NCBI RefSeq assembly: GCF_018977255.1 | Contig: NW_024704742.1 | Span: 5,706,001-5,770,000 of the forward strand | Reading direction: 5' to 3' | Source: Callorhinchus milii | Taxonomy: Eukaryota | Length of the DNA: 64,000 nt | Part shown: one piece after another, positions 5,039-64,000 of the stretch | Layout: each line of letters begins with the position of its first letter | Numbering within the stretch: the stretch's first letter is position 1 | Program-made: the position numbers and the translations under genes | The notes under the pieces: model-generated | Seen by the model: only the letters and a program-made list of their open reading frames with translations | Told to the model about the DNA's origin: nothing | Databases searched by the model: none

Positions 5039-5447
5039 GTGGAGTCCTGTAGCTCAGTGGTTAGAGCACTCGCTTTGCAAGCGAGACACCTGAGTTCAAT
5101 TCCAGGCAGAGGGCGAAACCTTGGGCAAGTTTCCTTACTCCACACAGAGCCTAATAATAATCCCTCTAACAAAAACAAAAGAATATTAAATTGGTCATTT
5201 TCAATCCACGACTGTTTGTGGGACATTGCTGTGCGCAATTGGCTGCCGCGTTCGCCCTCAAATATACAGTCAATTCACTTTACAGTATGTTCTGTGAAGC
5301 GCTCGAAGACATGAAAAGCGGTATATCAAATGCAAGGATTATTATTACTATTACTCTATGGTGTTCTACTCTTGAGGATAATAATAATAATAGTCCTCCC
5401 GACGTGAAAAGCGCTATATCAAATGCAAGGACTATTATTATTATTAT
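5039..5447 (+). mobile_element. Young short-form tRNA-Ala/Deu SINE with an internal inverted duplication
   Basis: A box TAGCTCAGTGG, B box GTTCAATTCC, anticodon arm CTCGC-TTTGCAA-GCGAG, Deu core gctgtgcgcaattggctgccgcg, ATT tail. Confidence 0.93.
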
Positions 5448-5535
5448 CCTCAAGAGTAGAACACCATAGAGTAATAGTAATAATAATCCTTGCATTTGAT
5501 ATACCGCTTTTCATGTCTTCGAGCGCTTCACAGAA
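5290..5535. repeat. Perfect 108-bp inverted repeat with a 30-nt spacer
   Basis: 5290-5397 is the exact reverse complement of 5428-5535. Confidence 0.95.
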
Positions 5536-5809
5536 TATACTGTAATGCGAATTGACTGTATATTTGTGGGTGAAACACGGCAGCCGATTGCATACAGCAG
5601 CGTCCCATACAGTCGTGGAATTGAGTGAACAAATTATTATCCCCGGAAAAGCGATCCTCCAATCGACTAACAACCGGGTTCCAACTTATTGCTGGGAAAA
5701 CAAAGGCGTGTGGAGTAAGGAAACTTGCCCAACGTTTCGCCCTGCTGGGAACAGAACCCAGGTCTCTCGCTTGCGAGGCGAGTGCTCTAACCACTGAGCT
5801 ACAGGACTC
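5478..5809 (-). mobile_element. Long-form tRNA-Ala/Deu SINE
   Basis: Reverse complement has the head gagtcctgtagctcagtggttagagc, anticodon loop CTCGCAA and the central ggaacccggttgttagtcgattgg segment. Confidence 0.92.
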
Positions 5810-14706: not shown

Positions 14707-16084
14707 TAAGCAAACTACTTGAAAATATTGCAACAGGTGGATGAAAATGCTATTTATTTTTAAAATGAAAACGCCATCCCAAAGGCCCTTAAAAACTTTG
14801 GTGAAAAAAATTAAACACAGTCCTTGAACTAGTTTCTAATAATACCCCTTAGCGTGTTCCGCACCGGCAACGACATGGTTTGATTTTAAACTTCTAATCA
14901 TTATCCAAACCAGTCAATTAATAAAAAGACTGTTTTGTGGGTTGTGAGATGCTGCTGTGGTGAAGTATAAACACAAGCCCAAAGTAATGAAATCCTGTGT
15001 TTAAATCCCTGTGACAAGTCTTCAGGCAAAAATAGGCATCATCACATAGTAGCCCATCTCACTCAGTCTGTGGGATAACTGTGGCTCACAATAAAGAACA
15101 AAGCCTCACTCAAACGAAGGCAGAGTGAGTGACTCTTTCGCAATTCACCACACTTTTGCCCGCGAATATTACCCGATTTATAGCAGGAAGGAGCAGTCAA
15201 ATTAACACTGTTTTGCTCCATTTGTTGCTTTCCGAAAAAAAAATGTGCCAAGTCCAAAAGCCAATTTAAAAGCCTGTGTTTTTGATGTGTTTCCAAATGT
15301 CGAGAGGTGCTCGCCCAACCTCTGGCTGTGCTATAAACTGGAGGCTATAAACAAAAAGTGCCGGCCAAGAAATATGTTCACCGGCCCAACTATCCCAAGC
15401 TTCCCTCCTTACTGTCATTGAGGTATTTTTAAACCACTGATTACGAGGATCACTGCACCAAATTACACGTTTAAAACCTTGAGAACTGCGTGTTGCATAC
15501 ATTTTGATATTTTCTTCCTCCGCCCTGCCCTCTCCTTTAGATGCCAACAGTTTCACATGTGTATGGCAATAGAACTGAAGCGAGTTTGATAACGAGGACA
15601 ACCGTACTTGTACTTTTAAGACGTAGAGGCTCACACAACGGCACTGTCCTTGGCTCCAGTGTTCTCCCTTCAACGTAAAGAGCAGAAGAGTTCATTCAGT
15701 AAATAGTTCCTACAAGCTGGAAAGCAATCTTTTCAACTCTGCAGGGTTATAAAATTAAAATGTGGCCCAGTTGCATTTCCACATTCAGGTACTTGGACGC
15801 TAGACTCAGTAAGTAATTATAGAAATAGATTTATATTGCTCGAAATACACAAACACCACCACCTTCATTCAAAGAGGATTTGTGTCAGAATAGAGCCTTC
15901 CCAAATAAATAGTCATGGCTCCCAGGGCTAACCTGAAGAATGTTGATCCTGATCTTGTCTGCGGAGCCGTTTCCCACACAAATTTCACCTGGAACAAGAT
16001 CCCTTGCACCAGACATCCCCAATAAGAACTAAAGCGTACATTAATACTTCCATAAAACAGAATATTTTCTACCCCCTCCTCGCT

Positions 16085-16206
16085 CCCTCCCTTCCCTCCC
16101 GCTGACCATTTCCGCCCCAATGCTCGGGTCCCGACCCAACTGTCCAGCGCCTCGGGACGTCCTCCCGACGTGAGAGGCGCTCTCTAAATGAAATCTTGTT
16201 GTTGTA
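16085..16206 (+). mobile_element. L2 3' end
   Basis: ctgtccagcgcctcgggacgtcctcccgacgtgagaggcgct ... (GTT)n. Confidence 0.8.
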
Positions 16207-16499
16207 TTGTCTAACGCTAGGATTGAGCGCATGTGTAATTTATGCAGCAATAAAGAGCTACAGATTCAGAGTTTATCATGGCCTCATCCGAACCCGAGTG
16301 ATTTGTACGAACCTACATCTAGCAAATGGGTTTGAATTCTTGACTCCCTCACATGAAGGAAGGAATGCTTCACTTGGTGAACGCCTAGCCTGTCGCAGCA
16401 GCAACTATTTGCAAGACGGAACCAGAGTATGACCGCGACACTTCACGGGGGAGAGGACGATTATAAAGGCACCGTATCAACTGGAAGGACTTTCAGACT

Positions 16500-17220
16500 T
16501 GAACTCATGCCGAGGAGCTGGGTATCGGAGACCACAGAAACCGACAGACAGCCTTGCCCGCCCGCCCGCGCTGAAATTGTCGCACGCCGGCTGTTATGGG
16601 AAATGACGGTATCAGAAACCTCGGGGCTACACCCGAACGCAAGAGACGACTTTAATTCAGAATACTGTTACCGCAAGTCGATTCTGGTTCTTGCAATCGC
16701 GTTGCCACCCACGGCTCCGCCACTCGGCAGGTCGTAGCGCGCAAAGCACAAGCCGGGCGCTAAATAGAGAGCAGGTGGCAGAATGGAAGGCTCGGACCCG
16801 TAAACACGGACCTAAGCGCTGCTACCGACATTTCTTCGGACATGTACAGTAGGGGCCGCGAAAGCTATAAGCTATAAGCAAGCGCTCGGCAGAACAACAC
16901 CACGCAACACACGGCCCGCGCTCGCCGCGCACTACACTCGCCGCGCACTACACCCCCCCCCCCCGCCCCCCCCCCCCCCCCCCCCCCCCCCCCCGCGCAA
17001 GACACACACGCTGCTCACCACACACCACGCACCGCGTTCGCCAGGCGCTCGCCACGCAATACGCGGCCCACGCGCTCGCCACGCAATACACGGCCCACGC
17101 GCTCGCCACGCAATACACACCCTCCACGCAATACACACCCTCCACGCAATACACACCCTCCACGCAATACACACCCTCCACGCAATACACACCGCGCTCC
17201 CCACGCGCAACTGACTCCTT
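16500..17220. promoter_or_regulatory. CpG-rich segment (downstream shore of the - strand gene's CpG island)
   Basis: Dense CpG (e.g. cccgcccgcgc, cggcccgcgctcgccgcgc) compared with the flanks; poly-C run at ~16952-16994. Confidence 0.6.
17043..17192. repeat. Minisatellite: 27-bp units changing into 18-bp CCACGCAATACACACCCT units
   Basis: Direct tandem repeats visible in the sequence. Confidence 0.9.
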
Positions 17221-17329
17221 GCACTCTCTCTCTCTCTCTCTCTCTCTCAGGCTCTTCCACCACATTGTTCAGGGCTCACACTCACTTGTAAACACACTAT
17301 TATGATCACTGCCCAACCTCGGGCCACAC

Positions 17330-18125
17330 TCTCCCCTCCCTCTCTCCTCTCCCCTCAATCCCTCCCTCCCTCCCCCCTCACTCTCACTCCCTCCCTCCCT
17401 CCCCCTCACTCTCTCCCTCCCTCCCCCTCACTCTCTCCCTCCCTCCCCCTCACTCTCTCCCTCCCTCCCCCTCACTCTCTCTCCCTCCCTCCCCCTCACT
17501 CTCTCCCTCCCTCCCCCTCACTCTCTCTCTCCCCTCACTCTCACTCCCTCCCTCCCCCTCACTCTCTCCCTCCCCCTCACTCTCTCTCTCTCCCCCTCAC
17601 TCTCTCTCTCCCCTCACTCTCTCTCTCCCCCTCACTCTCTCTCTCCCTCTCCCCCCTCTCCCTCCCTCCCTCCCCCCCCTCGCCCCTCACTTTCTCCCCC
17701 TCACCCCTCACTCTCTCTCCCCCTCGCCCCCCCTCTCCCTTCCTCCCCCTCGCCCCTCACTCACTCTCTCCCTTCCTCCCTAACCCCTCACTCCCTCCCC
17801 CTCGCCCCCTCTCTCCCCCGCGCTCGCCCCCTCTCTCCCCCCTCGCCCCCTCGCTCTCCCCTCGCCCCCTCTCTCTCCCCCCTCGCCCCCTCTCTCTCCC
17901 CCTCGCCCCTCTCTCCCCCCTCACTCCCTCCCCCCTCACTCCCTCCCCCTCGCCCCTCACTCCCTCCCCCTCCCCCTCACTCCCTCCCCCTCCCCCCTCA
18001 CTCCCTCCCCCTCCCCCCTCACTCCCTCCGCGCTCTCCCCCCTCACTCCCTCCGCGCTCTCCCCCCTCACTCCCTCCCCCTCCCCCCTCGCACACTCCCT
18101 CCCTCTCCCCCCTCACTCCCCCCCA
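17330..18125. repeat. C/T-rich low-complexity tract (CCCT/CTCA units)
   Basis: Nearly pure C/T with ctcact units. Confidence 0.95.
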
Positions 18126-18126
18126 C

Positions 18127-18285
18127 CTCGAGGCCCAGAGCAGCCAAACACACACACACACAAAATGGAGAGAGAGAGAGAGACCGAGGGCCTGAGCCCC
18201 GCGTGGGGCAGTGCCGGCAATGGCACAGGAGGGCCATGTGGGGAGGGAGCGGCCACCAGGAGAGGCGCGGGGCCCCTCCTGCCCT
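18127..18285 (-). promoter_or_regulatory. Unique GC-rich island within repeat tracts; possible alternative exon or regulatory element
   Basis: On the - strand: a (CT)n run, CCATTTTG (YY1-like core), and a possible donor GAG|GTGGGG at 18127/18126. Confidence 0.35.
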
Positions 18286-19840
18286 CCCTCACACACTCAC
18301 TCACTCCCTCACACTCACTCACACTCACTCCCTCACACCTCCCCTCCCTCACACACTCCCTCACACTCACTCCCCTCCCCTCCCTCACACACTCACTCAC
18401 TCACTCCCTCACACTCACTCCTCCCCTCACACTCACTCCCCTCCCCTCCCTCACACACTCACTCACACACTCCCTCACACTCACTCCTCCCCTCACACTC
18501 ACTCCCCTCCCCTCCCTCACACACTCACTCACTCACTCCCTCACACTCACTCCTCCCTCACACTCACTCCCCTCCCTCACTCACACACTCACTCACTCAC
18601 TCACACTCACTCCTCCCCTCACACTCACTCCCCTCCCCTCCCTCACACACTCACTCACACACTCACTCACTCCCTCACACCTCCCCTCCCTCACACACTC
18701 ACTCACACTCACTCCTCTCCTCCCCTCACACTCACTCCCTCTCTCCCTCACACACTCACTCTCTTACTCACTCTGTCCCTCTCACTCACTCCTTCCCTCC
18801 TCTCCTCCCCTCACACTCCCTCACTCTCTCCCTCACACACTCCCTCACTCTCTCCCTCACACACTCCCTCACTCTCTCCCTCACACACTCCCTCACTCTC
18901 TCCCTCACACACTCCCTCACTCTCTCCCTCACACACTCACTCACTCTCTCCCTCACACACTCACTCACTCTCTCCCTCACACTCACTCTCTCCTCACACT
19001 CCCTCCCTCTCCTCACACTCCCTCCCTCTCCTCACACTCCCTCCCTCTCCTCACACTCCCTCCCTCTCCTCACACTCCCTCCCTCTCCTCACACTCCCTC
19101 CCTCTCCTCACACTCACTCCCTCTCCTCACACTCACTCCCTCTCCTCACACTCACTCCCTCTCCTCACACTCACTCCCTCTCCTCACACTCACTCCCTCT
19201 CCTCACACTCACTCCCTCTCCTCACACTCACTCCCTCTCCTCACACTCACTCCCTCTCCTCACACTCACTCCCTCTCCTCACACTCACTCCCTCTCCTCA
19301 CACTCACTCCCTCTCCTCACACTCACTCCCTCTCCTCACACTCACTCCCTCTCCTCACACTCACTCCCTCTCCTCACACTCACTCCCTCTCCTCACACTC
19401 ACTCCCTCTCCTCACACTCACTCCCTCTCCTCACACTCCCTCCCTCTCCTCACATTCCCTCCCTCTCCTCACACTCACTCCCTCTCCTCACACTCACTCC
19501 CTCTCCCTCACACTCACTCCCTCTCCCTCACACTCACTCCCTCACACTCCCTCACTCTCTCCCTCACACTCCCTCACACTCTCCCTCACACTCCCTCACT
19601 CTCTCCCTCACACTCCCCCTCACACTCCCTCACACTCCCTCACTCTCTCCCTCACTCTCTCCCTCACACTCCCTCTCTCCCTCACACTCCCTCTCTCCCT
19701 CACACTCACTCCCTCACACTCACTCTCTCCCTCACACTCCCTCTCTCCCTCACACTCCCTCTCTCCCTCACACTCACTCCCTCTCTCCCTCACACTCACT
19801 CTCTCCCTCCTCTCCTCACTCCCTCCCCTCCCCCTCACTC
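18286..19840. repeat. CTCACACT/CCCT low-complexity array including an 18-bp tandem unit (CTCCTCACACTCACTCCC-like)
   Basis: Homogeneous 18-bp repeats at ~19090-19500 with degenerate flanks. Confidence 0.95.
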
Positions 19841-19842
19841 AC

Positions 19843-20125
19843 CGGGAGCTGTGGCCGCTGTTCGGGTACAGGCGGTCCCGGTGCCGCGGGCGGTGTGAGC
19901 GGGAGTCCGCGGTCAGTGACTGACCGACGGCGGCGGCGTTCCTCTGAGAGCCGCTTCCACACCGCCTCCTCCTCCCCCCGAGCCCCGAGCAGCGGGTGTG
20001 TGAGTGTGACAGTGTGACAGTGTGTGTGTGTGACTGTGTGTGACAGTGTGTGTGTGTGTGTGTGTGTCACTGAGCCCCGGGGGGGGTCGGGGCGGCCATG
20101 TTACTCTGTGACTGAGAGGAGGACT
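19843..20125 (-). other. Putative first exon of an unidentified gene divergent from MFHAS1 (coding or 5' UTR)
   Basis: GC-rich unique island between repeat tracts. Strong donor CCG|GTGAGT at 19843/19842. ATG in strong Kozak context (aacATGG) at 20099. The frame ...GEEEAVWKRLSEERRRRRS...PEQRPQLP reaches the donor in phase 0. Confidence 0.7.
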
Positions 20126-20180
20126 GAGAGGAAGCGGCGACCGCACACTTTATACACACCGACAGCCCGGGGGGCGGGGC
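20109..20180 (-). promoter_or_regulatory. Core promoter: GC box, TATA box, Inr
   Basis: GGGGCGGGGC at ~20171-20180. TATAAAG on the - strand at 20154-20148. Inr-consensus TCAGTCC with its A at 20125, placing the TATA at -29. A second TCAGTCA has its A at 20113. ETS-like CTTCC at 20134-20130. Confidence 0.65.
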
Positions 20181-20197
20181 CACAGCTCGCCCCTCCC

Positions 20198-20198
20198 A

Positions 20199-20249
<51 letters not shown>

Positions 20250-20528
20250 ACACATACACACACACACACACACCCCCACACACATACACACATACACACA
20301 CACACACACACACATACACACACCAACACACACACACACATACATACACACACACATACACACATACATACACATACACACACCAACACACACACACACA
20401 TACACACACACACACATACACACATACATACACATACACACACCAACACACACACACACATACATACACACACACACACACACACATACATACACACACC
20501 AACACACACACCCCCCCCCACACACACA

Positions 20529-20559
<31 letters not shown>

Positions 20560-23500
20560 CTACACACACCAACACATACACACACATACACCTACACACA
20601 CACACATACACACACACCAACACACACACACACATACATACACACACACCAACACACACACACACATACATACACACACATACACCTACACACACACACA
20701 TACACACACACCAACACACACACACACATACATACACACACACCAACACACACACACACATACATACACACACATACACCTACACACACACACACACATA
20801 CACACACACACACCCCCACACACCAACACACACACACCCCACATACACATACACCAACACACACACACACACACCAACACACATACACCAACACACACAT
20901 ACACACACACACATACACCCACACACACACATACATACACACATACACACCCACACACACATACACCAACACACACACACACACACACACACATACATAC
21001 ACACATACACACCCACACACACACACACACACATACATACACACACACCCACACACACACATACACCTACACACACCAACACACACACACACATACATAC
21101 ACCCACACACACACATACACCCACACACACCAACACACACATACACATACACACATACATACACACACATACACCTACACACCAACACACACACCCCCCA
21201 CACACATACACACACACACACATACATACATACACATACACACACACACATACATACATACACATACACACACACACATACACCCACACACATACACACA
21301 CACACCCCCCACACACATACACACACACACACATACATACATACACATACACACACACACATACATACATACACATACACACACACACATACACCCACAC
21401 ACATACACACACACACCCCTCACACACATACACACACACCCCCCACACACATACACACACACACCCCCCACACACATATACACACACACACACACATACA
21501 CCTACACACACCAACACACACACACACATACATACACACACATACACCTACACACACACACACACCCACACATACACCCACACACACACATACATACACA
21601 CACACACACACTAACACACCAACACACACCCCCCCCCCACACACACACACACCAACACACCCCACACACACACCAACACCCACACACACACACCCCACAT
21701 ACACATACACCCACACACACCAACACACACACACACACCCACATACACCAACACACCCCACACACACACACACACCAACACACACACCCCCCACCCACAC
21801 CAACACACACCAACACACCCCACACACACACACACCAACACACCCCCCCCACACACACACACACACACCAACACACTAACACACACACACCCCACATACA
21901 CATACACCCACACCCACACACACACATACACACCCACACACACACACATACACACCCACACACACACACCAACATACACACACACACACACACACCAACA
22001 CACACACACACACCCCACATACACATACACCCACACACACCAACACACACACACACATATATACACACACACACCCCACACACATACATACACACTCATA
22101 CACACACCCCCACACACACACATACACACACCCACACATACACCAACACACACACCCCACACACCCACACACACATACACACCCACACACACACATACAC
22201 ACATACACACCAACACACACATACACCCACCCACACACACACCAACACACACACATACACACCCACACACACCAACACACACACACACCAACACACACAC
22301 ACACACATACACATACATACACACACACACACCAACACACACACCCCCACACACACAACCACACATCCCCCACACACACAGCAACACACACACACATACA
22401 CACACACACACCAACACACACATACACACCCACACACACACACCAACACACACACACACCAACACACACACACACCAACACATCCCCCACACACACACCA
22501 ACACACACACCCCCACACCCCACACCCCCCACCCACACCAACACACACCAACACACCCCCCCCACACACACACACCAACACACCCCACACACACCAACAC
22601 ACACACACACCAACACACCCCACACCCCCCCACACCAACACACACACACACACACAGCGCACCCCACATACACACCAACACACACACACACACCCCAACA
22701 CACACACACCAACACCCCCCCCCCACACACACACCAACACACCAACACACACACCAACACACACACCCCCACACACACACCAACACCCCCCCACATCCCC
22801 CCCCACACACACACCAACACACACACACCCCCAACACACACCTCCACCCCCACACACACCAACACACACACCCCCACTACACACACCTCCACCCCCACAC
22901 ACCAACACTAACACACATACCACCCACCCTCCCCACCCAACACCAACACTAACACACACCCCCACCCCCCCAACACCAACACTGACACACACCCCCACCC
23001 CCCCAACACCAACACTGACACACACACACCCTCCCCCCAACACCAATACACACACCCCCACCCCCTTCCCCCCAACACCAATACACACACCCCCACCCCC
23101 TTCCCCCCAACACCAATACATACACCCACACCCCCTTCCCCCCAACACCAACACACACACCCCCTCCCCCCCAACACCAACACACACACCCCCTCCCCCC
23201 CAACACCAACACACACACACCCACCACACACACCTCCACCCCAACACCCCCCACCAAAATCAACACACCCTCCCCCCCCACACCAACACACCACCCCCCC
23301 ACCCCCAACACCCCCCCACCAACACTAACACACTCTCCCCTCCAACACCAACACATGTCCCCACTCCCCCCAACACCAACACACATCCCCCATCTCCCCA
23401 ACACCCCCCCCATACCAACACCCACCCCCCAACACTAACACACCCACTAACACACACCCCCACCGCCCCCAACATCAACACCAACACACCCCCCCACCAC

Positions 23501-23995
23501 CAACACTAACACACACCCCACAGCCCCAACACCAATACCCCCCCACCCGCAACACCCTCCACCCCCAACACCAGCACACCCCCAACACCCTCCACCCCCA
23601 ACACCCTCCACCCCCAACACCCTCCACCCCCAACACCAGCACACCCCCAACACCCTCCATCCCCAACACCCTCCACCCCCAACACCCTCCACCCCCAACA
23701 CCAGCACACCCCCAACACCCTCCATCCCCAACACCAGCACACCCCCACCACCAACACTAACACACACCCCACAGCCCCAACACCAATACCCCCTCACCCG
23801 CAACACCCTCCACCCCCAACACCCTCCACCCTCAACACTCTCCACCCCCAACACCAGCACACCCCCAACACCAACACTAACACACACCCCACAGCCCTAA
23901 CACCAATACCCCCCCACCCGCACACCCCCACCCTCCAACACGAACACACCCCCAACACTAACACCAACACATCCCACAACACTAACACACACCCC
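20198..23995. repeat. ~3.8 kb degenerate (CA)n array grading into CCA/CCC-rich units (CCAACACCCTCCACC-like)
   Basis: CACA with CATA and CCAA interruptions; C content rises toward 23995. Confidence 0.97.
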
Positions 23996-24029
23996 GGCAT
24001 TGAGGAGGCACTTCAACTGCCACCCGCTC

Positions 24030-24730
24030 ACTGGTTCATTCACTCACACACACTGCTCATTTACACACACACTGCTCATTTACACACACACTGCTCATTC
24101 ACACACACACACACACTGCTCATTCACACACACACTCTGCTCATTCACACATACTGCTCATTCACACACACACACACTGCTCATTCACACACACACACAA
24201 ACTGCTCATTCACACACAAACTGCTCATTCACACACACACACAAACTGCTCATTCACACACACACTGCTCATTTACACACACACACACTGCTCATTCACA
24301 CACACACACTGCTCATTCACACACACACACACACACACTGCTCATTTACACACACACACTCTGCTCATTTACACACACACACTCTGCTCATTCACACACA
24401 CACACTGCTCATTCACACACACACATACTACTCATTCACACACGCACTCTGCTCATTCACACACACTGCTCATTCACACACACTCTGCTCATTCACACAC
24501 ACACTCTGCTCATTCACACACACACACATTGCTCATTTACACACACACACACTGCTCATTTACACACACACACTGCTCATTCACACATAAACTGCTCATT
24601 CACACACACCCACTACTCCTTCACACACACACGCACTCTGCTCCTTCACACACACAGCTCATTTACACACACTGCTCATACACACACACTCTGCTCACAC
24701 ACATTGCGCACTCTGCTCACTCACTCACAC
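24030..24730. repeat. Satellite of CTGCTCATT(C/T)A(CA)n units
   Basis: The ctgctcatt core recurs many times, separated by variable CA runs. Confidence 0.95.
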
Positions 24731-24829
24731 ACATGGCAGAGCAAATGCCTCCAACAACAACACACTCAGAGCACCTCCACTGTACGCAGACACACAGCCT
24801 CCTCTCACGCACAGTACACACCATGTGCA

Positions 24830-35439: not shown

Positions 35440-36330
35440 TAGATGCTCCCGCTCAGCAATGTTATCTGCAGGAGTGGTGCTCACTTCCACATGTATGGCA
35501 GATGACACCCAACTCGATCTCTCTGCCTCCACTCTCGATTCCAAGACCATTGTTGTTCTGACCGATCGCCTGTTAGACGCCATTGACTCATTGGTTTCCC
35601 ATCCCTCAGCAGATCGAGTTCCACATCCTCGCACTAACGTTTAATTCCCTCTATGGCCTTGGCCCATCTTAACTCTGTGACTTCAACTTAGAAACCCAAT
35701 CATTCCCTCCGCTCAATGGTCACCTGCCTGCTTCACATCCCCCGCCTCACCCACTCTACCGTTGGCGGTTAAGCTTTCAGCATCTGCCTCGCAAGCGAGA
35801 GGATCTGGGTTCGATTCCCAGCAGGGCGAAACGTTGGACAAGTTTCATTACTCCACACGCCTCTGTTTACCTAGCAGTAAGTAGGAACCTGGTTGTTAGT
35901 CGATTGGCAGATCGCTTTTCCGGGTGTAATAATTCCTTCATAAAAAAACACTCAATCCATGACTGTTCGTGGGACGCTGCTGTGTGCAATTGGCTGCCCC
36001 GTTTCGCCCACAAAATATACAGTCAATTCACTTCACAGTGTATCCTGTGAAGCTCTTTGAGACGTCTCGAAGATGCCATAATGTGCTATATCAAATGCAA
36101 CGGTTATTATTATTATTATCTGTACTGACTCTCGGGAACTCCATTCTGGAGTCCATTCAACTCACCCCTTAACTCGTCTCCTTCAAGGTCCATCTCGAGA
36201 CCTTATCCTTTGACTGTGCTTTTGGCCATCTTCTAACTCCTCCTCCTTGGCTCCTGTGCAAACCTTAGACTGTCCAGCACCTTGAGACATTCCCGATATT
36301 AAAGGAGTTATATATACATGTAAATTTGTA
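35440..36330 (+). mobile_element. L2 fragment split by a long-form SINE (35786-36119)
   Basis: ttccacatgtatggcagatgacacccaactc (YADDTQL region); SINE from ctcgcaagcgagagg to the ATT tail; L2 3' end resumes afterwards. Confidence 0.8.
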
Positions 36331-39344: not shown

Positions 39345-39712
39345 ATAATAATAATCATAATCCTTGCATTTGATATAGTGCCTTATCAGGTCTCAAAACG
39401 CTTCACAGAATATACTGTAAAGTGAATTGATTGTATATTTTATGGGCGAAACCCAGCAGCCAATTGCCCACAGTAGTGTCCCACAAACAGTCATGGATTG
39501 AAGTGACCAAATTATTTTTATTTATCTTTGAAGGAATTATTAACCCCGGAAAAGCGATCGGCCAATTGACTATCAACCAGGTTCCTACATACTGTTAGGT
39601 AAATAGAGGAGTGTGGAGTAAGGAAACTTGCCCAACATTTCGCCCTACTGGGAATCCAACCCAGGTCCTCTCGCTTGCAAGGGGATTACTCTAACCATTG
39701 AGCTATAGGGCT
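39345..39712 (-). mobile_element. Full long-form SINE
   Basis: Head, central segment, Deu core and tail all present. Confidence 0.9.
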
Positions 39713-57700: not shown

Positions 57701-58117
57701 CGTGAACCTCAGTTGGCCAGACTTTTTATGTGGAATTGGTCACCTGTGACTAACTTATTGGATACCTCCACATTTGCAACCACTCATTGTCAATTGGGTA
57801 ACATTTCTCTCTTTCAAGGATATCTTGTTAAAAACCTAAAGATCACGCTCTCTCATAGTTTGTTACAATACGTGTATGTGTGCGACGATATCCACGCAAT
57901 ATGTGCAGGTACATATATTTCAGGTTCACAGTGTTCAGTGTAAACAATGTGACTGATTGTGCGGATTCTCTGATTGGTGTAGTGACTGTATTTTATGGAT
58001 GAATGCGGCGACCAATTTGTGCGCAGCAGTATCTCACAAACAGCCATGAAGTGAACGGGGGATGCGTTTTTTTCTTTGGCAGATCTGTGGGGATTGTCAT
58101 CAAGTCCACTCAATGCA

Positions 58118-58605
58118 AATAATAATAATAATAATAATAATCCTTGCATTCGATATAGCGCCTTGTGGAGTCCTGTAGCTCAGTGGGTGGAGTCCTGTAG
58201 CTCAGTGGTTAGAGCACTCGCTTTGCAAGTGAGAGACCTGAGTTCAATTCCAGGCAGAGGGCGAAACCTCGGGCAAGTTTCCTTACTCCACACACAGCCT
58301 AATAATAATCCCTCCAAAACCCAAAACAATAATAAATTGGTCATTTTCAATCCACGACTGTTTGTGGGACATCGCTGTGCGCAATTGGCTGTCGCGTTCG
58401 CCCACAAATATACAGTCAATTCACTTTACAGTGTGTTCTGTGAAGCGCTTTGGGACGTCCTCCCGACGTGAAAAGCGCTATATCAAATGCAAGGATTATT
58501 ATTATTATTATTATTATTATTATCACGTCTTCGAGACGTCTCCAAGCGCTTCGCAGGATAAACTCCAAAGTGAATTGGCTGTATATTTTGCGGGCAAAAT
58601 GCAGG
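58118..58605. mobile_element. Young + strand SINE (58165-58523, duplicated 5' end) inserted in an older - strand SINE
   Basis: Host ...atatagcgcctt|insert|(tat)cacgtcttcgagacgtc... Confidence 0.9.
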
Positions 58606-59009
58606 CTGTTGGGGAAAATATTTTTGTATTATAAAAGGCCAGAGAACCTGGCATTTTCCCAACAAGGCAATCTGGTGTTGCTTCTCATTGGGAGAGGCCC
58701 TGGTAAAGAATTTCTAATTCAATGATTACATTTACACAAGATCCTCCTCCAGCTAAAGTCTCCCCCCCCACCCGCTCCCCCCTCCCCCCCACACCTCCCC
58801 CAGCTCTCCGTGTCTGCTTTTCCCCCAATCGATTGCAGTCGGCCGATTGATTGCCTTGTGCCCGAGGGCAGAACATCATCGTCAACAGCCCGTCTCGCTC
58901 TGTAACGGCCGCAGCCACTCGCCGCTGAGCGCAACGAGTCATTTGAGGAGGAACCGACCGGCTGTGCGTATCGCGGACGGGCTTCGTTGTCGCGGTGCAG
59001 CCCGGGCGC

Positions 59010-59427
59010 GCGGAGTCCCCTTGTAGCTCAGCGGTCGGTCAGCAAGGCGAGAGGACCCGGGTTCGATTCCCGGGCGGGCGGGCGGGCGGGGGGGCGCTGA
59101 ACGCTGGGCGAGTTTCCTTACGCCCGCACCTCCCCCCGTTTGCCCAGCAGTGAGCAGGAGCCCGGTTCGTCAGTCGATTGGCGGGATCGCTTTTCCGGGG
59201 GCGGGGAGGGGGGGGGGGGCGGGGTGGAGGGGGGTAATAACTCCTTCCAAAAATAATAATAATAATAATAATAACAATAATCCCGTCACCGGTTGCGGCC
59301 GCCTACAGTCGATGGACTTCACAGTGTATTCCGTGGAGCGCTTTGAGACGTCGTGAAGAACGACTCGGATCAAATGGAAGGGTTATTACGACGATGATGA
59401 CGACGATGATGATGGTGGTGGTGGTGG
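59010..59427 (+). mobile_element. Long-form SINE, strongly GC-shifted, in the MFHAS1 CpG island
   Basis: gcggagtcc..tgtagctcagcgg, GGTTCGATTCCC, gtcgattggcgggatcgcttttccggg, gcgctttgagacgtc and atcaaatggaagggttatt are in SINE order. Confidence 0.85.
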
Positions 59428-59574
59428 ACAGGGGTCTGGGGGCTTGGGCAGAGGCTGGACAGTGGGTGGGGGGGGGGGGGGCAAGGCATGAGGGGGGTGT
59501 CCCTCCCTCCCTCCCTCCCTCCTCCCCACCCCTGGGGGTGGGGTTGGTCGGTGCTATTGGCTGGTGCGGCTCCA

Positions 59575-60005
59575 GGGAGGAGGAGAGAGTGAGAGAGAGA
59601 GGGAGAGAGAAAGAGAATGAGTGAATAAGAGAGAGAGAGAGAAAGAAAGAGAGTGAGTGAGAGAGAGCGAATGAGTGAATGAGAGAGAAAGAAAGAGAGT
59701 GAGTGAGAGGGAGAGAATGAGTGAATGAGAGAGAGAGAGAGAAAGAAAGAGAGTGAGAGGGAGAGAATGAGTCAATGAGAAAGGGAATGAGTGAATAAGA
59801 GAGAGAGAGAAAAAGAAAGAGAGTGAGAGAGAGGAATGAGTGAATGAGAGAGAGAGAGAAAGAGAGTGAGTGAATGAGAGAGAGAGAGAGAGAAAAAGAA
59901 AGAGAGAGAGAGAGAGAGACAGAGAGTGAGTGAATGAGAGAGAGAGAGAGAGAGAGAAAGAAAGAAACAGAGAGTGAGAGATAAAGAGCTGAAGGGGAGA
60001 GGGTG
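59575..60005 (+). repeat. Polypurine GA/GAGT low-complexity tract upstream of MFHAS1
   Basis: Degenerate repeats of gagtgaatgagagagagagaaaga, with almost no C. Confidence 0.95.
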
Positions 60006-60263
60006 AGAAGTCAGAAGGACAACCGAGTGGGAGAAGCTGCCGCATCCCTCCCCCTCCCTCCCTCCTTCCCTCCCTCCCTCCTTCCCTTCTCTCCCTTTAT
60101 TCCTTCATTCCCCCCCTCTCCCCCCTCCTCCTCCTTCTCCCCCTCTTCCTCCTCGAGCACTGGCGTCGAGCACTGAAGGCCGAGTCGGCGGCGGCGGCGG
60201 CGGTGAGAGCGGGAGGGGACTGAGGGGATGTAGTCTGTGAGGGGGAGAGGGAGAGGGGGCGCC

Positions 60264-63200
60264 ATGACAGAGGAGGGCGGCGGCGGGAGGGAGAGGGAGG
60301 GGGAGGGGGACAGGGCCGGGGACAGGGCCGGGGACAGGGCCGGGGCGGCCAGGCTGTGGCGAGCCTCGGCTCTGCGCTCCAGGAAACTGCGGACCAACCT
60401 GCGGCAGCTGACGCTGACCGGTCTGAGCCCGAGCCCGAGCCCGGGGCCGGGGCTGGGCCTGAGCCTGAGCCCGGGGCTGGGCCTGAGCCTGAGCCCGGGG
60501 CTGGGGCTGGGCCCGGGGCCGCCCGGCGGCCTGGCCGAGGTGGAGGTGCTGAACCTCGCCAACAACCACCTGGAGGAGCTGCCCGAGGGGCTGGGGCTGG
60601 GGGGGGGGAGGGGGAGGGGGGAGGTGGGGGGGAGGGAGGAGAAGAAGGAGGAGGAGGAGGAGGTGTAGGAGGGGGAGGAGGTGTAGGAGGGGGAGGAGGT
60701 GAAGGAGGGGGAGGAGGAGGAGGAGGGAGGAGGGGGAGGAGGGGGAGGAGGAGGAGGGAGGAGGGGGAGGAGGAGGGGAGGAGGGAGGGAGGAGGTGAAG
60801 GGAGGAGGAGGGAAGGAGGAGAGGGGAGGGAGGGAGGGGGGAGGAGGAGGAGGGAGGAAGAGGGGGAGGAGGTGAAGGAGGAGGAGGGGGAGGAAGAGGA
60901 GGTGAAGGAGGGGGAGGAGGAGGAGGAGAAGAAGGAGGAGGAGGAAGAGGGGGAGGAGGTGAAGGAGGAGGAGGGGGAGGAAGTGAAGCAGGAGGGGGAG
61001 GAGGAGGTGGAGGAGGAGGAAGAGGAGGGGGAGGGCGAGGCCTCCTGACCAACCTGACCGTCCTGATCCTGAGGAGGAACCGTTTCCACCGCCTGCCCCC
61101 GGCCCTCCAGCAGCTGCGGCACTTGACCGAGCTGGACCTCAGCCACAACTGCCTGTCCTGGCTGCCCGACGAGACGGCCACCTGCCTGCGGCGCCTGAAG
61201 AAGCTGAGCGTCAGCCACAACCGGCTCCAGAGGCTCCCGGCCGCCATGGGCTGCCTGACCAGCCTGGAGGAGCTGGACCTCAGCTTCAACGAGCTGCGCC
61301 GCCTGCCCGAGACCTTCGGCCACCTGCGGACGCTGCGCATGCTGGACGTGGACCACAACAAGCTGGCCCATTTCCCCCGGCAGATCTTGGACCTGAGGGA
61401 CCTGGAGGAGCTGGACTTCTCGGGCAACAAGGTGGACAGCTTGCCCGGCGAGATCGTCATGTTGCGGTCCATCAAGATCCTCTGGCTGAGCAACACCAAG
61501 CTGGCCAGCCTGCCCGACGGTTTCGGCCGCTTGACCACCCTGGAGAGCCTGATGCTGGACGGCAACGGGCTGAGCTCCTTGCCCGAAAGCTTCCGCAATC
61601 TGGAGCGGCTCAAAATGATCAACCTGTCGTCGAACGGGTTCGAAAGGTTCCCCAACGCTGTGGCGGAGCTGGTCAGTTTGGAAGAGCTGTACCTGAGCCG
61701 AAACCGACTCACCGTCATTCCGGAGAAGATTTCCAACATGTCCAAGCTCGCCACCCTTTGGCTGGATAACAACAGGATAAGGTACCTGCCCGATTCGATC
61801 GTGAGCCTGTGCTGTCTGGAAGAGCTGGTGCTGCAAGGGAACCAGATTGCTATTCTGCCCGACGCATTCGGAAAGCTTTCGAAGGTCAACATTTGGAAGA
61901 TTAAAGACAATCCCCTAATACAGCCTCCCTACGAGGTCTGTATGAAGGGAATACCCTACATAGCAGCGTACCAGAAGGAGCTGGCTTTGTCTCAGCCCGC
62001 AGTGAAGCCCAGGTTGAAGCTCGTGCTGATGGGACTCAAAGGTGCCGGCAAATCTGTCCTGAGGCAGTGCCTGGTTGGCCAAACGCACGGTCTTCCTGTG
62101 TCACACGGGAAAGGAATCGAAGTCACTCAGTGGGTTGCTGATGTTGAGAAGAATCTGACTTTTATCGTCTACGACTTAGCGGGAGATCAAAACTATGATC
62201 TCATTCAGCCATTCTTCCTCTCGCCCGGTGCTTTTTACCTCTTGTTAGTCAATCTGAAAGCGTACGTTTCCGGTCGCTTTTATGATTTTGTTGGCTATTT
62301 CCTACATCTTCTTGGCGCCAGGGTGCCTCATGGTGTTGTGTGTATGGTGGGGACCCACGTAGATCTCTGCAGTGAAAAAGAGATCGAAGAAAAATGCCTT
62401 GGGATTCATCACCAGATTGCTCTCCAAGAGAAACGAGATGTTGAGTTCATGAACGCTGTAGCTCAAAAGGTAGACAAAGCCCTGAGCCAAGAGTTTGATC
62501 TGCGAGCTACAAGTCCACACGCATCGTTCTACGGAGTGTCGGATAAAAACCTAAGGAGGAAGAAAGCACAGCTGCAGTACATGTTGAATAATCGCCTCCA
62601 AATATTGTCTCCTGTCATCCCCGTGAGCTGCCAAGGCCAGTATCTGGGCATCCAACGTTTGAAGGAGAAACTGCTGTCAATTGCTGAACACAGGGAGATT
62701 TTTCCAAATCTCCATAGAGTCTTGCCAAAATCATGGCAGAGGTTGGAAGAATTGCACTTTAAGCCACAGGAACTTTGGCTCTCCTGGTGGGACTCGGCCA
62801 GGTTGGGATTGCAAGCCGGCCTCACAGAAGACCGACTTCAAAGTGCCCTGTCTTACTTGCACGAGAGTGGCAAGTTGCTGTATTTTGAAGATAGTCTGAC
62901 TCTTAAAGAGTACGTATTTCATAACTTAACCAAACTCATTGACATTCTAAATATCTTCTTCCAACGTGACGCTTCGGTTCTTCTTCAGAAACTCTTGGCT
63001 GACGCCGATATTGATGAACTGAGAGCAACGCAACTGCATCACTACGTGGAAGGGTTCCTGCTTCACGGACTTCTTCCGGTGCACATCATTCGCCTTCTTT
63101 TGAAGCCACACATCAAGACCCAGCAGGATCTGAATCTAATTCTAGAATTGCTGGAGAAAATGGGTCTCTGTTATTGCCTCAATAAACCGAAAATCAAGCC

Positions 63201-63679
63201 ACTGAACGGCGCGGCAGTCTGGTTCAAGTTCCCCTGTTACGTGAAGAATGAGGTTCCACATGCAGAAGCCTGGATAAATGGCTCAAATCTCTCTGGACAA
63301 CCATTTGCCATCGAACAGCTTCAAGTTGAATATAGTTTTCCCTTTTTGTTGCCTCCAGGGCTTTTTGCCAGGTATAGTGTCCAGATCAACACACATGTTG
63401 TACATCGATCGGATGGCAAATATCAGATTTTTGCCCACAGGGGAAAGGTTCCTGTGGTGGTCAGTTACAGACCTTCCCGAAGCAGTCTGCGGGCAGACAC
63501 TTTATCTATTACCAGCCATGCTTCGTTGCCAAATATTTGGACAGCATGGCAAGCCATAATTCCTCTGGTGGAAGAACTGAATATGCTTCTCCAGGAATGG
63601 CCAGGATTGTACTTCACTGTGCATATCCTCTGTTCAAAGTGCCTTAAGAGAGGGTCCCCAAACCCGCACACCTTTCCAG
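60264..63679 (+). CDS. MFHAS1: MFHAS1/MASL1 first coding exon (LRR array, Roc GTPase, COR); frame broken in the GGA-rich insert as assembled; remaining exons lie beyond the window
   Basis: ATG in gccATGa at 60264. N-terminus ARLWRASALRSRKLRTNLRQLTL and EVLNLANNHLEELPEGLG, then LTNLTVLILRRNRFHRLP. ORF 61123-63693 has LRRs, KDNPLIQPPYEVCMKGIPYIAAYQKEL, P-loop GLKGAGKS, YDLAG, GTHVD and WLSWWDSARLGLQAGLTEDRLQSALSYLHESGKLLYF, all matching vertebrate MFHAS1 as I recall it. Ends PNPHTFP-G|GTAAG (phase-1 donor at 63680). Confidence 0.96.
60600..61038 (+). repeat. GGA-rich trinucleotide tract inside MFHAS1 exon 1 (Gly-rich when read in frame)
   Basis: Units such as gga gga ggt gaa gga ggg gga; 60853-61041 is open and in frame with the downstream LRRs. 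Confidence 0.9.
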
Positions 63680-64000
63680 GTAAGGTCATATAAGTTTTTC
63701 CTTACCTACTGTCCTCAAGCTCAGAGCAACCCACTGAACCGGTCTAGTCAGTACATTGAATCATTACAGTGAAGCCTATTCCTGAATATTTCTTTATAAT
63801 AATTAAATACATCAATTATTAATTGAAAGGGATCGAAACTCAGACATTCTATATAAACCTGAAACAATTATCTGTATTCATAACTTTAAAAGTAAAACAT
63901 AAAGGAGGGATTGTTGGGCAAAGTTGAGCTCATTTATTTTGTATAACGCAACAGCGTCATTGTTTGGAAACGTGCTCTCCTGAGAGGTAGGTTGAATAAT

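What the first reader, a model, noticed from the sequence alone, without database searches (positions are those of the whole stretch)
59010..59427. SINE copy in the MFHAS1 promoter rewritten toward GC
Seen: compared with sister long-form copies (35786-36119, 39345-39712), the aligned differences are mostly A/T->G/C: GTGGAG->GCGGAG, cagtgg->cagcgg, tttacctagcagtaagtaggaacc->tttgcccagcagtgagcaggagcc, gttagtcg->gtcagtcg, ctgtgaagcg->ccgtggagcg. The (ATT)n tail drifts through ACG/ATG to GTG, and GGGC/G-run expansions appear. Copies elsewhere instead show CpG decay. Inference: a neutral reporter of strong GC-biased gene conversion at a promoter-localised recombination hotspot; protection from methylation alone would not create new G/C.
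Basis: partly seen in the sequence, partly recalled or inferred. Interest (0 to 1): 0.7.

Follow-up and report, generated by a model that had tools for sequence, protein, structure and literature searches.

The report
GC-rewritten SINE beside MFHAS1 start
One dead copy of a very common elephant-shark jumping element, lying just before the MFHAS1 gene, has changed almost only from A/T to G/C, as has the start of the gene itself; this is the expected footprint of a known process, recombination-linked GC-biased gene conversion at a CpG island, though recombination was not measured here.

Summary
The window is Callorhinchus milii. The long-form tRNA-Ala SINE at 59010-59427 ends 837 bases before the MFHAS1 ATG. 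With one automatic mask for all copies, it shows 19 A/T>G/C versus 2 G/C>A/T changes; eight long-form sisters pool to 55:99 (Fisher p=1.6e-6). Leaving out CpG transitions gives 15:1 versus 39:61. GC-conserving changes are at the normal rate, and transitions fall on both strands. So lost methylation, general hypermutation and RNA editing do not explain it. The 5' part of MFHAS1 exon 1 has G/C at 176 of 180 third codon positions, falling to 261 of 517 downstream. Best reading: GC-biased gene conversion (B about 3) at a CpG-island hotspot, as in dogs. Not shown: recombination, allele-frequency skew, the transcription start, or PRDM9 independence (published status in this species is split). Against: an L2 tail near a second island is unbiased (6:5), and an AT-rich (AAT)10 expansion lies inside the copy. 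The scan already noted the same pattern at CAMK2D in this genome. Known process, new lineage.

The parts
59010..59427 (+). Long-form tRNA-Ala-headed SINE copy (CmiSINE type), GC-shifted; 61% GC and 43 CpG versus 39-47% GC and 6-18 CpG in eight long-form sisters (padded slices)
59012..59075 (+). tRNA-Ala-derived head. A-box-like (59024-59034) and B-box-like (59060-59070) motifs still readable (motif consensus recalled); about 10 bases of the anticodon arm lost; not called a tRNA
   Evidence: ARAGORN sister heads tRNA-Ala but not this one; Rfam tRNA hit only at 58195-58257
59071..59096 (+). (CGGG)6.5 expansion, giving four overlapping GGGCGG words
59100..59196 (+). SINE body (CORE-like by recall); carries W>S changes at 59104, 59110, 59122, 59142, 59152, 59155, 59160, 59171 and no S>W change
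59197..59234 (+). G-run expansion grown from the GGGG of the consensus; matches a G-quadruplex pattern
59252..59281 (+). (AAT)10 expansion in the A-rich linker: AT-rich, against the trend
59282..59303 (+). Remodelled GC-rich remnant where roughly 50-70 bases of the shared 3' body are missing; not alignable, left out of masked counts
59304..59387 (+). 3' part shared with L2-like LINE ends; W>S at 59311, 59314, 59320, 59332, 59336, 59382
59384..59427 (+). Former (ATT)n tail drifting TAT>TAC>GAC>GAT>GGT
58751..59009 (.). Unique CpG-rich flank (GC 0.64, CpG observed/expected 0.99 in 58751-59000) with a C-run and a CCAAT word
60264..60602 (+). MFHAS1 N-terminal coding part, GC3 0.96 over 113 codons, with GC-rich in-frame repeat expansions absent from shark and coelacanth orthologues
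61048..63680 (+). Rest of MFHAS1 exon 1; G/C at 176 of 180 third positions in 61048-61587, 261 of 517 in 62128-63680

Best explanation
An ordinary CmiSINE copy inserted at the upstream edge of the MFHAS1 CpG island. Meiotic breaks are repaired often in this roughly 3-kb island (about 58750-62000). Mismatch repair in heteroduplex DNA favours G/C, so new A/T>G/C alleles fixed about 3.7 times faster than in sister copies and G/C>A/T alleles were held back, while GC-conserving changes ran at the normal rate. The same pressure saturated third codon positions at the 5' end of the gene, and slippage then expanded the new G-rich seeds. SHOWN: the spectrum, its both-strand transitions, the local peak. 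INFERRED: recombination as the cause, germline hypomethylation, neutrality of the copy, duration of the hotspot, independence from PRDM9.
For: W>S:S>W 19:2 versus 55:99 (p=1.6e-6); non-CpG 15:1 versus 39:61 (p=4.8e-5); per-site non-CpG W>S 0.179 versus 0.048, S>W 0.015 versus 0.092, GC-conserving 0.016 versus 0.018; fitted B 3.3 (support 1.7-6.0), age scale 1.07, 2dLL 21.8 over no bias (A). T>C 6 and A>G 9 (42 A), 8 and 8 (42 C): no strand bias in transitions. GC3 0.97-0.98 falling to about 0.5 within one exon, while GC at positions 1-2 stays 0.38-0.52. Loose-end consensuses from 75-389 paralogous contigs per row in runs X1 and X2 match the A/T states of the window consensus at 59110, 59122 and 59311, so the inferred ancestral states are not a quirk of 24 copies. 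Dog CpG islands show a 4-fold W>S rise, 0.26 versus 0.06 (PMC4350167 section 17). Elephant-shark starts of expressed genes are hypomethylated in a methylated genome (PMC5437953 passages).
Against: One locus, picked as the most extreme: the non-CpG test survives correction for 25 copies (0.0012) but not for about 4000 (0.19); against the most GC-leaning single long-form sister (11:5) p=0.20. An L2-like tail at 16074-16205, at the edge of a second CpG island, is unbiased (6:5, D). The SINE fragment at 58526-58604 (7:4, p=0.36) and the young copy at 58187-58525 (2:1) give no significant support. An AT-rich (AAT)10 expansion lies inside the copy. Transversions all give G on the + strand (6:0 versus 19:31, p=0.005 in 42 C; 6:1 versus 9:15, p=0.04 in 42 A, noticed after the fact), which gBGC does not predict. 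Amino-acid changes in the GC-rich zone are not clearly GC-ward (6 up, 4 down). PRDM9 is counted as complete in this species by one paper.
Confidence: 0.7

Rival explanations
1. Selection: the SINE was taken into the MFHAS1 promoter or 5' UTR, and changes that made CpGs, GC boxes and G-runs were favoured.
For: New overlapping GGGCGG words at 59072-59089, 59199 and 59217, and G-quadruplex-pattern runs; CpG observed/expected about 0.9-1.0 across the copy; CmiSINEs are enriched in gene flanks (PMC5499810 passages).
Against: 11 of the 15 core changes are not CpG-making transitions and are scattered over head, body and tail; 176 of 180 third codon positions 1.6-2.2 kb downstream moved the same way; the copy has deletions and an AT-rich expansion, as expected without constraint.
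Confidence: 0.1
2. Inherited: the copy came from a GC-rich source element or subfamily, so the G/C states predate the insertion.
For: In one search, 59152 is not listed as a difference and 59142 differs in only 36.5 of 448.8 depth in X1, so the few contigs laid there seem to share those two G states. The consensus comes from only 8-24 copies, some of other subfamilies. GC-rich relatives could be missing from short-read contigs.
Against: Those contigs are chosen for likeness, and they keep T at 59155 (432 of 498.7 depth, X1) and A at 59160 (507.6 of 528.4). The longest paralogous pieces over 59105-59200 carry 13-14 differences and 5 gaps in about 95 bases. In the window most focal states occur in 0-2 of 7-22 sisters. 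A source element does not explain the exon's GC3 peak.
Confidence: 0.06
3. Local mutation bias rather than fixation bias: a transcription- or R-loop-linked process at this promoter produces more G/C, especially G on the sense strand.
For: All transversions C give G on the + strand (p=0.005); G-runs and the GGT tail are on that strand; G/C skew flips near 58900 and near 60200.
Against: Transitions, the bulk of the signal, are symmetric (T>C 8, A>G 8); S>W changes are depleted, which a mutagen would not do; third positions in the exon are C 96, G 80. A-to-I editing of the SINE RNA before insertion would give only A>G on the sense strand.
Confidence: 0.08
4. Lack of methylation alone, plus a consensus that under-calls ancestral CpGs.
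For: 4 of 19 (42 A) to 7 of 20 (42 C) W>S changes are transitions that restore a CpG at a consensus TG/CA; C at 59332 is also in 2 of 21 sisters.
Against: With all such sites removed the excess remains: 15:1 versus 39:61 and 13:0 versus 112:116.
Confidence: 0.03
5. Assembly error in a GC-rich, G-run-rich stretch.
For: The MFHAS1 frame is broken across a nearby purine tract, so local errors are possible.
Against: Changes are mostly single-base transitions in one direction, in non-repetitive blocks. The exon from 61048 reads open for 881 codons, and its product is 100% identical over 92% of its length to the C. milii record. Read errors have no reason to favour G/C at synonymous sites. Lengths of the G-runs may still be wrong.
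Confidence: 0.03

Closest known systems
gBGC at CpG-island recombination hotspots of dogs (Berglund et al., PMC4350167; abstract and section 17 read)
   Same: About 4-fold rise in W>S substitution in islands, low CpG decay, accelerated evolution of the island.
   Different: Dog result is genome-wide, polarised with outgroups and tied to a recombination map and a dead PRDM9; here it is one locus, polarised by a repeat consensus, with PRDM9 status unsettled.
GC peak at gene 5' ends reaching into GC4 (Qiu et al., PMC11323403; passages read)
   Same: GC highest at the 5' end, extending into synonymous positions; growing in canids; a peak is reported for a shark.
   Different: For its shark that paper reports flanks near the genome average; here the upstream non-coding flank and an inserted repeat are also GC-shifted. 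The passages read do not contain the word Callorhinchus.
PRDM9-independent ('default') hotspots in placental mammals (Joseph et al., PMC11161765; abstract and section 12 read)
   Same: Substitution bias used as a record of past recombination at hypomethylated promoters; such hotspots coexist with PRDM9.
   Different: Mammals only, using whole-genome alignments; it states that the link to hypomethylation is untested even in non-mammalian amniotes.
CmiSINEs SINE2-1_CM and SINE2B-1_CM (Luchetti et al., PMC5499810; parts 1-2 of 6 and passages read)
   Same: tRNA-Ala head with A and B boxes, 3' end shared with an L2 LINE, very high copy number (302,861), enrichment in gene flanks.
   Different: The parts read report no GC-shifted copies. 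Which of the two consensuses this long form matches could not be checked (figure and supplement alignments not seen).

Membership tests
CmiSINE (SINE2-1_CM / SINE2B-1_CM) | tRNA-Ala-derived head | tested here: met
   Focal head aligns to sister heads, 7 of which ARAGORN calls tRNA-Ala; the focal head itself is too decayed to be called.
CmiSINE (SINE2-1_CM / SINE2B-1_CM) | Pol III A and B boxes | tested here: met
   Read by eye at 59024-59034 and 59060-59070; motif consensus recalled, not from a call.
CmiSINE (SINE2-1_CM / SINE2B-1_CM) | CORE domain in the body | not testable with these tools
   No CORE or Repbase consensus on hand; resemblance of 59100-59160 is recalled only.
CmiSINE (SINE2-1_CM / SINE2B-1_CM) | 3' end shared with an L2 LINE | tested here: inconclusive
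   The 3' end of the LINE-like element at 476-1580 matches sister SINE tails (85.7% over 49 bases at 58438-58486); that this element is L2-2_CM was not tested.
gBGC hotspot footprint | Excess of W>S outside CpG context | tested here: met
   15 observed, 4.0 expected, p=2e-5.
gBGC hotspot footprint | Deficit of S>W outside CpG context | tested here: met
   1 observed, 6.1 expected, p=0.017.
gBGC hotspot footprint | GC-conserving changes at background rate | tested here: met
   3 of 185 versus 35 of 1911 sites (A); small numbers.
gBGC hotspot footprint | No strand asymmetry | tested here: inconclusive
   Transitions symmetric (p=0.61); transversions skewed to G on the + strand (p=0.005-0.04).
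gBGC hotspot footprint | Kilobase-scale peak that ignores function (coding and non-coding alike) | tested here: met
   GC 0.54-0.78 in most 250-base windows over 58751-61750 (0.43 in the GA repeat) against 0.42 background; GC3 gradient in the exon.
gBGC hotspot footprint | W>S alleles segregate at higher frequency than S>W alleles | not testable with these tools
   Only contigs were available; no allele frequencies.
PRDM9-independent promoter hotspot | Recombination peak at the island | not testable with these tools
   No map for a shark-like fish found (0 papers).
PRDM9-independent promoter hotspot | Germline hypomethylation of the site | not testable with these tools
   Proxy only: CpG observed/expected 0.9-1.0 versus 0.49 background.
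PRDM9-independent promoter hotspot | Long-lived rather than transient | tested here: inconclusive
   Bias over the whole life of the copy fits only 1.2 log-likelihood units better than a 1% burst.
PRDM9-independent promoter hotspot | PRDM9 absent, partial or not directing breaks | not tested
   Literature only: KRAB-SET without SSXRD, zinc fingers not fast-evolving, expression not detected (PMC5519329); counted as complete in PMC8892340.

The most novel reading that the evidence does not exclude
Chimaeras, despite carrying a KRAB-bearing PRDM9, have aimed meiotic recombination at CpG-island promoters for much of the last 100 million years or more. The resulting conversion is strong enough to rewrite inserted repeats, saturate 5' codons and seed G-rich expansions. 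Their roughly 300,000 CmiSINE copies would then be a built-in, dated ruler for mapping historical recombination from a single genome, in the sister group of bony vertebrates, and would help decide whether promoter hotspots are the ancestral gnathostome default.
Probability: 0.4. Interest if true: 0.62.

Novelty: new member of a known kind. Interest (0 to 1): 0.36.

Why it matters
The process is well known in dogs, birds and many mammals. My searches found no paper showing it at promoters of a cartilaginous fish, where PRDM9's role is unsettled. A repeat copy gives its own ancestral sequence, so this case points to a cheap genome-wide test that needs only one assembly. By itself it is one clean example, not a discovery of mechanism.

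Tried and rejected
Laying contigs of four runs on 58530-59580 at 80% likeness (4 of 24 listed runs, all DNA-like or unlabelled): no listed piece of the locus itself covers the SINE; the only long own-locus piece is one X2 contig over 58651-59009. This lack of cover says nothing for or against the sequence, and gave no polymorphism or orthologue test. No RNA holder is on record. Internal replicates gave nothing: L2-like tail at 16074-16205, 6:5 against a pool of 17:26 from 7 tails (one further candidate, L11959, was dropped as non-homologous; D); fragment 58526-58604, 7:4; fragment near 57977, 26 differences in 78 sites, too poorly aligned to use; young copy 58187-58525, 2:1. Protein-level test: 6 GC-ward, 4 AT-ward in the first 190 residues, while three sharks or relatives (P0004-P0006) show 7:0, 9:0 and 10:1; not informative for this lineage. 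Hand-set blocks flatter the result, so the automatic mask is the headline. The unmasked count 27:7 includes non-homologous sequence. Rfam hits around the copy are low-complexity noise below gathering scores. Pfam on 98 of 429 candidate frames upstream found no match reaching a curated cut-off, so the gene at the second island is unnamed. RNA editing before insertion was rejected because T>C is as common as A>G. Searching the one held supplement of PMC8892340 for this species gave 0 hits; its Table S4, and the figure and supplement alignments of PMC5499810, were not seen and may bear on PRDM9 status and subfamily name.

Full report
Setting. The long exon at 61048-63693 encodes a protein 100% identical over 92% of its length to the UniRef MFHAS1 record of Callorhinchus milii, and 83% to a shark, so the window is elephant shark. 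The ATG is at 60264. The repeat at 59010-59427 lies on the same strand and ends 837 bases before it. No transcription start was mapped. G/C skew flips from C-rich to G-rich near 58900 and again near 60200, so the copy may lie upstream of the start or inside a 5' UTR. No whole genome was held.

The family. BLAST of the window against itself gave 24 sister copies or fragments that I aligned with the focal copy; 8 are long-form. ARAGORN sister heads tRNA-Ala, and sister tails match the 3' end of a LINE-like element at 476-1580. This fits the CmiSINEs of Luchetti et al. (PMC5499810; parts 1-2 of 6 and passages): tRNA-Ala head, CORE body, L2 tail, 302,861 copies, mean divergence 12.6% and 17.2%. 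I could not test the CORE domain or say which of the two consensuses applies. A third family, SacSINE1-CM, shares the tail, so tail-only fragments may be mixed; the headline count therefore uses long-form copies only. The family is abundant in the runs of organisms B and C as well.

Is the bias real? Each copy was scored against a leave-one-out majority of the others, at columns with at least 70% agreement, under one automatic mask. With the 8 long-form references the focal copy has 19 W>S and 2 S>W in 185 sites; the sisters pool to 55 and 99 in 1911 sites (p=1.6e-6). Removing transitions at CpG or at TG/CA that may be decayed CpG leaves 15:1 versus 39:61 (p=4.8e-5). With all 24 references the counts are 20:0 versus 144:169, and 13:0 versus 112:116. 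Hand-set blocks give 21:0 or 24:0, and an unmasked alignment that runs through the non-homologous middle gives 27:7 versus 213:276. Fifteen W>S sites recur in all three masked counts at the 70% threshold. The copy was picked as an extreme: both tests survive correction for 25 copies, and only the all-sites test survives correction for about 4000 (0.006 versus 0.19). Against the single most GC-leaning long-form sister (11:5), p is 0.20.

What kind of bias? Three rates separate the candidates (A, 53). Non-CpG W>S is 0.179 per site against 0.048 (15 observed, 4.0 expected). Non-CpG S>W is 0.015 against 0.092 (1 observed, 6.1 expected, p=0.017). GC-conserving change is 0.016 against 0.018. More W>S, fewer S>W and unchanged GC-conserving change is what a transmission bias predicts; a one-parameter fit gives B=3.3 (support 1.7-6.0) at an age equal to the sisters' (scale 1.07). 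Lack of methylation affects only CpG sites, and CpG retention alone is not significant here (1 of 17 versus 38 of 192, p=0.12). Transitions are symmetric (T>C 8, A>G 8 in 42 C; 6 and 9 in 42 A), which excludes A-to-I editing of the SINE RNA. One feature does not fit: transversions give G on the + strand (6:0 versus 19:31, p=0.005; 6:1 versus 9:15, p=0.04, noticed after the fact), like the G-runs and the GGT tail. A strand-linked process may act on top. The data cannot tell a lasting hotspot from a burst (log-likelihood -4.85 for lifelong bias, -6.03 for 1% of the time with B near 800).

The neighbourhood. GC rises from a background of 0.42 to 0.64-0.72 at 58751-59250, with CpG observed/expected 0.9-1.0 against 0.49. 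In MFHAS1, GC3 is 0.96 over the first 113 codons and 176 of 180 third positions are G or C in 61048-61587 (C 96, G 80). It falls through 0.80, 0.68 and 0.63 to 261 of 517 beyond 62128, inside the same exon, while positions 1-2 barely move. So the SINE is one marker in a peak about 3 kb wide that crosses coding and non-coding DNA. Nearby replicates are weak or negative: fragment 58526-58604 gives 7:4 (p=0.36), the young copy at 58187-58525 gives 2:1, and an L2-like tail at 16074-16205 at the edge of a second island gives 6:5 (D, 53, 61). An (AAT)10 expansion inside the copy goes toward AT. Amino-acid changes give no clear signal.

A GC-rich subfamily? Contigs of four runs were laid on 58530-59580 at 80% likeness. 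Loose-end consensuses from 75-389 contigs per row in X1 and X2 match the window consensus at 59110, 59122 and 59311. Paralogues keep T at 59155 (432 of 498.7 depth in X1, 324.6 of 432 in X2) and A at 59160 (507.6 of 528.4; 421.8 of 456.1). The longest paralogous pieces over the body carry 13-14 differences and 5 gaps in about 95 bases. Against this, 59152 is not listed as a difference and 59142 differs in only 36.5 of 448.8 depth in X1, so some copies seem to share those two states. They are selected for likeness, so this may be ascertainment. GC-rich relatives could also be missing from short-read contigs, so the test weakens the subfamily idea without closing it.

Mechanism and what is known. 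The best reading is GC-biased gene conversion at a hypomethylated island (0.70). The size matches dog islands, where W>S is 0.26 against 0.06 (PMC4350167, abstract and section 17). In canids the gain reaches GC4 at the start of coding sequences (PMC11323403, passages). Such hotspots coexist with PRDM9 in most mammals (PMC11161765, abstract and section 12), so PRDM9 status would not decide the matter. For this species one paper finds KRAB-SET without SSXRD, zinc fingers not evolving fast and no detected expression (PMC5519329, passages and section 22); another counts the gene as complete (PMC8892340, passages). Starts of expressed genes are hypomethylated and SINEs generally methylated in this species (PMC5437953, passages). 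The silver chimaera genome paper does not contain the terms PRDM9, recombination or gene conversion in its main text (PMC12952989, passages). PMC7980453 and PMC13712754 were seen only as search listings.

Novelty. The process is known. Eight searches of the open library listed no paper that shows promoter gBGC or a recombination map in a cartilaginous fish; most subscription papers are not covered and I read only the papers named above. The scan has already noted a GC-shifted SINE tail at CAMK2D in this genome and GC-driven retrocopies in other genomes; these are unchecked notes, not support. Verdict: a real, clean local example, a new member of a known kind, of most value as a pointer to a genome-wide test.

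Noticed in passing
window 60603-61038: A 436-base GGA-rich purine tract interrupts MFHAS1 exon 1 between two stretches that are adjacent in sharks. It shifts the frame by 1 and has stops in all three frames (6, 2, 1). It has GT words near its start but no pyrimidine tract at its end. New intron, coding poly-Glu/Gly with assembly errors, or a break with restart at the downstream Met used by the UniRef model: not resolved.
   Followed up: partly
window 60264-60602: The MFHAS1 N-terminus has in-frame GC-rich repeat expansions (GDRA repeats; Ser-Pro-Gly-Leu repeats) that are absent from the shark, ray and coelacanth orthologues aligned.
   Followed up: partly
window 16250-24800: A second CpG island (observed/expected 1.05-1.21 at 16251-17500) is followed by about 7.5 kb of C-rich and CA-rich locus-specific repeats, with a short CpG-rich unique stretch at about 19840-20190 that looks like a minus-strand first exon or promoter. 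The gene was not identified.
   Followed up: partly
window 58646-58761: A 116-base unique stretch upstream of the SINE is held at about 84% identity by one contig of organism C: a possible conserved promoter-proximal element.
   Followed up: no
window 58716, 58722, 58733: One low-depth contig (5.08) of run X2 differs from the window at three listed places within 18 bases, all A/T in the window and G/C in X2; organism C also has G at 58716. One contig only, possibly error or a clustered haplotype difference.
   Followed up: no
window 58118-58604: A cluster of nested SINE pieces: a young short-form copy with a duplicated 22-base head (58165-58208), an inverted tail at 58118-58164 and an older inverted fragment at 58526-58604.
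   Followed up: partly
window 59583-59988: A 400-base GA-rich imperfect repeat separates the SINE from the MFHAS1 5' end and holds almost no CpG, splitting the island in two.
   Followed up: no
P0004, P0005, P0006 (MFHAS1 of three elasmobranchs): Their first LRRs show lineage-specific amino-acid changes mostly toward GC-rich codons (7:0, 9:0, 10:1), a hint that the 5' GC pressure on this gene is not confined to chimaeras.
   Followed up: no
window 5393-5447 and 5039-5353: The short-form copy at 5039-5353 shares a distinctive 3' end with the adjoining long-form copy at 5472-5809 and a third tail at 5393-5447: possible local duplication or conversion between neighbours.
   Followed up: no
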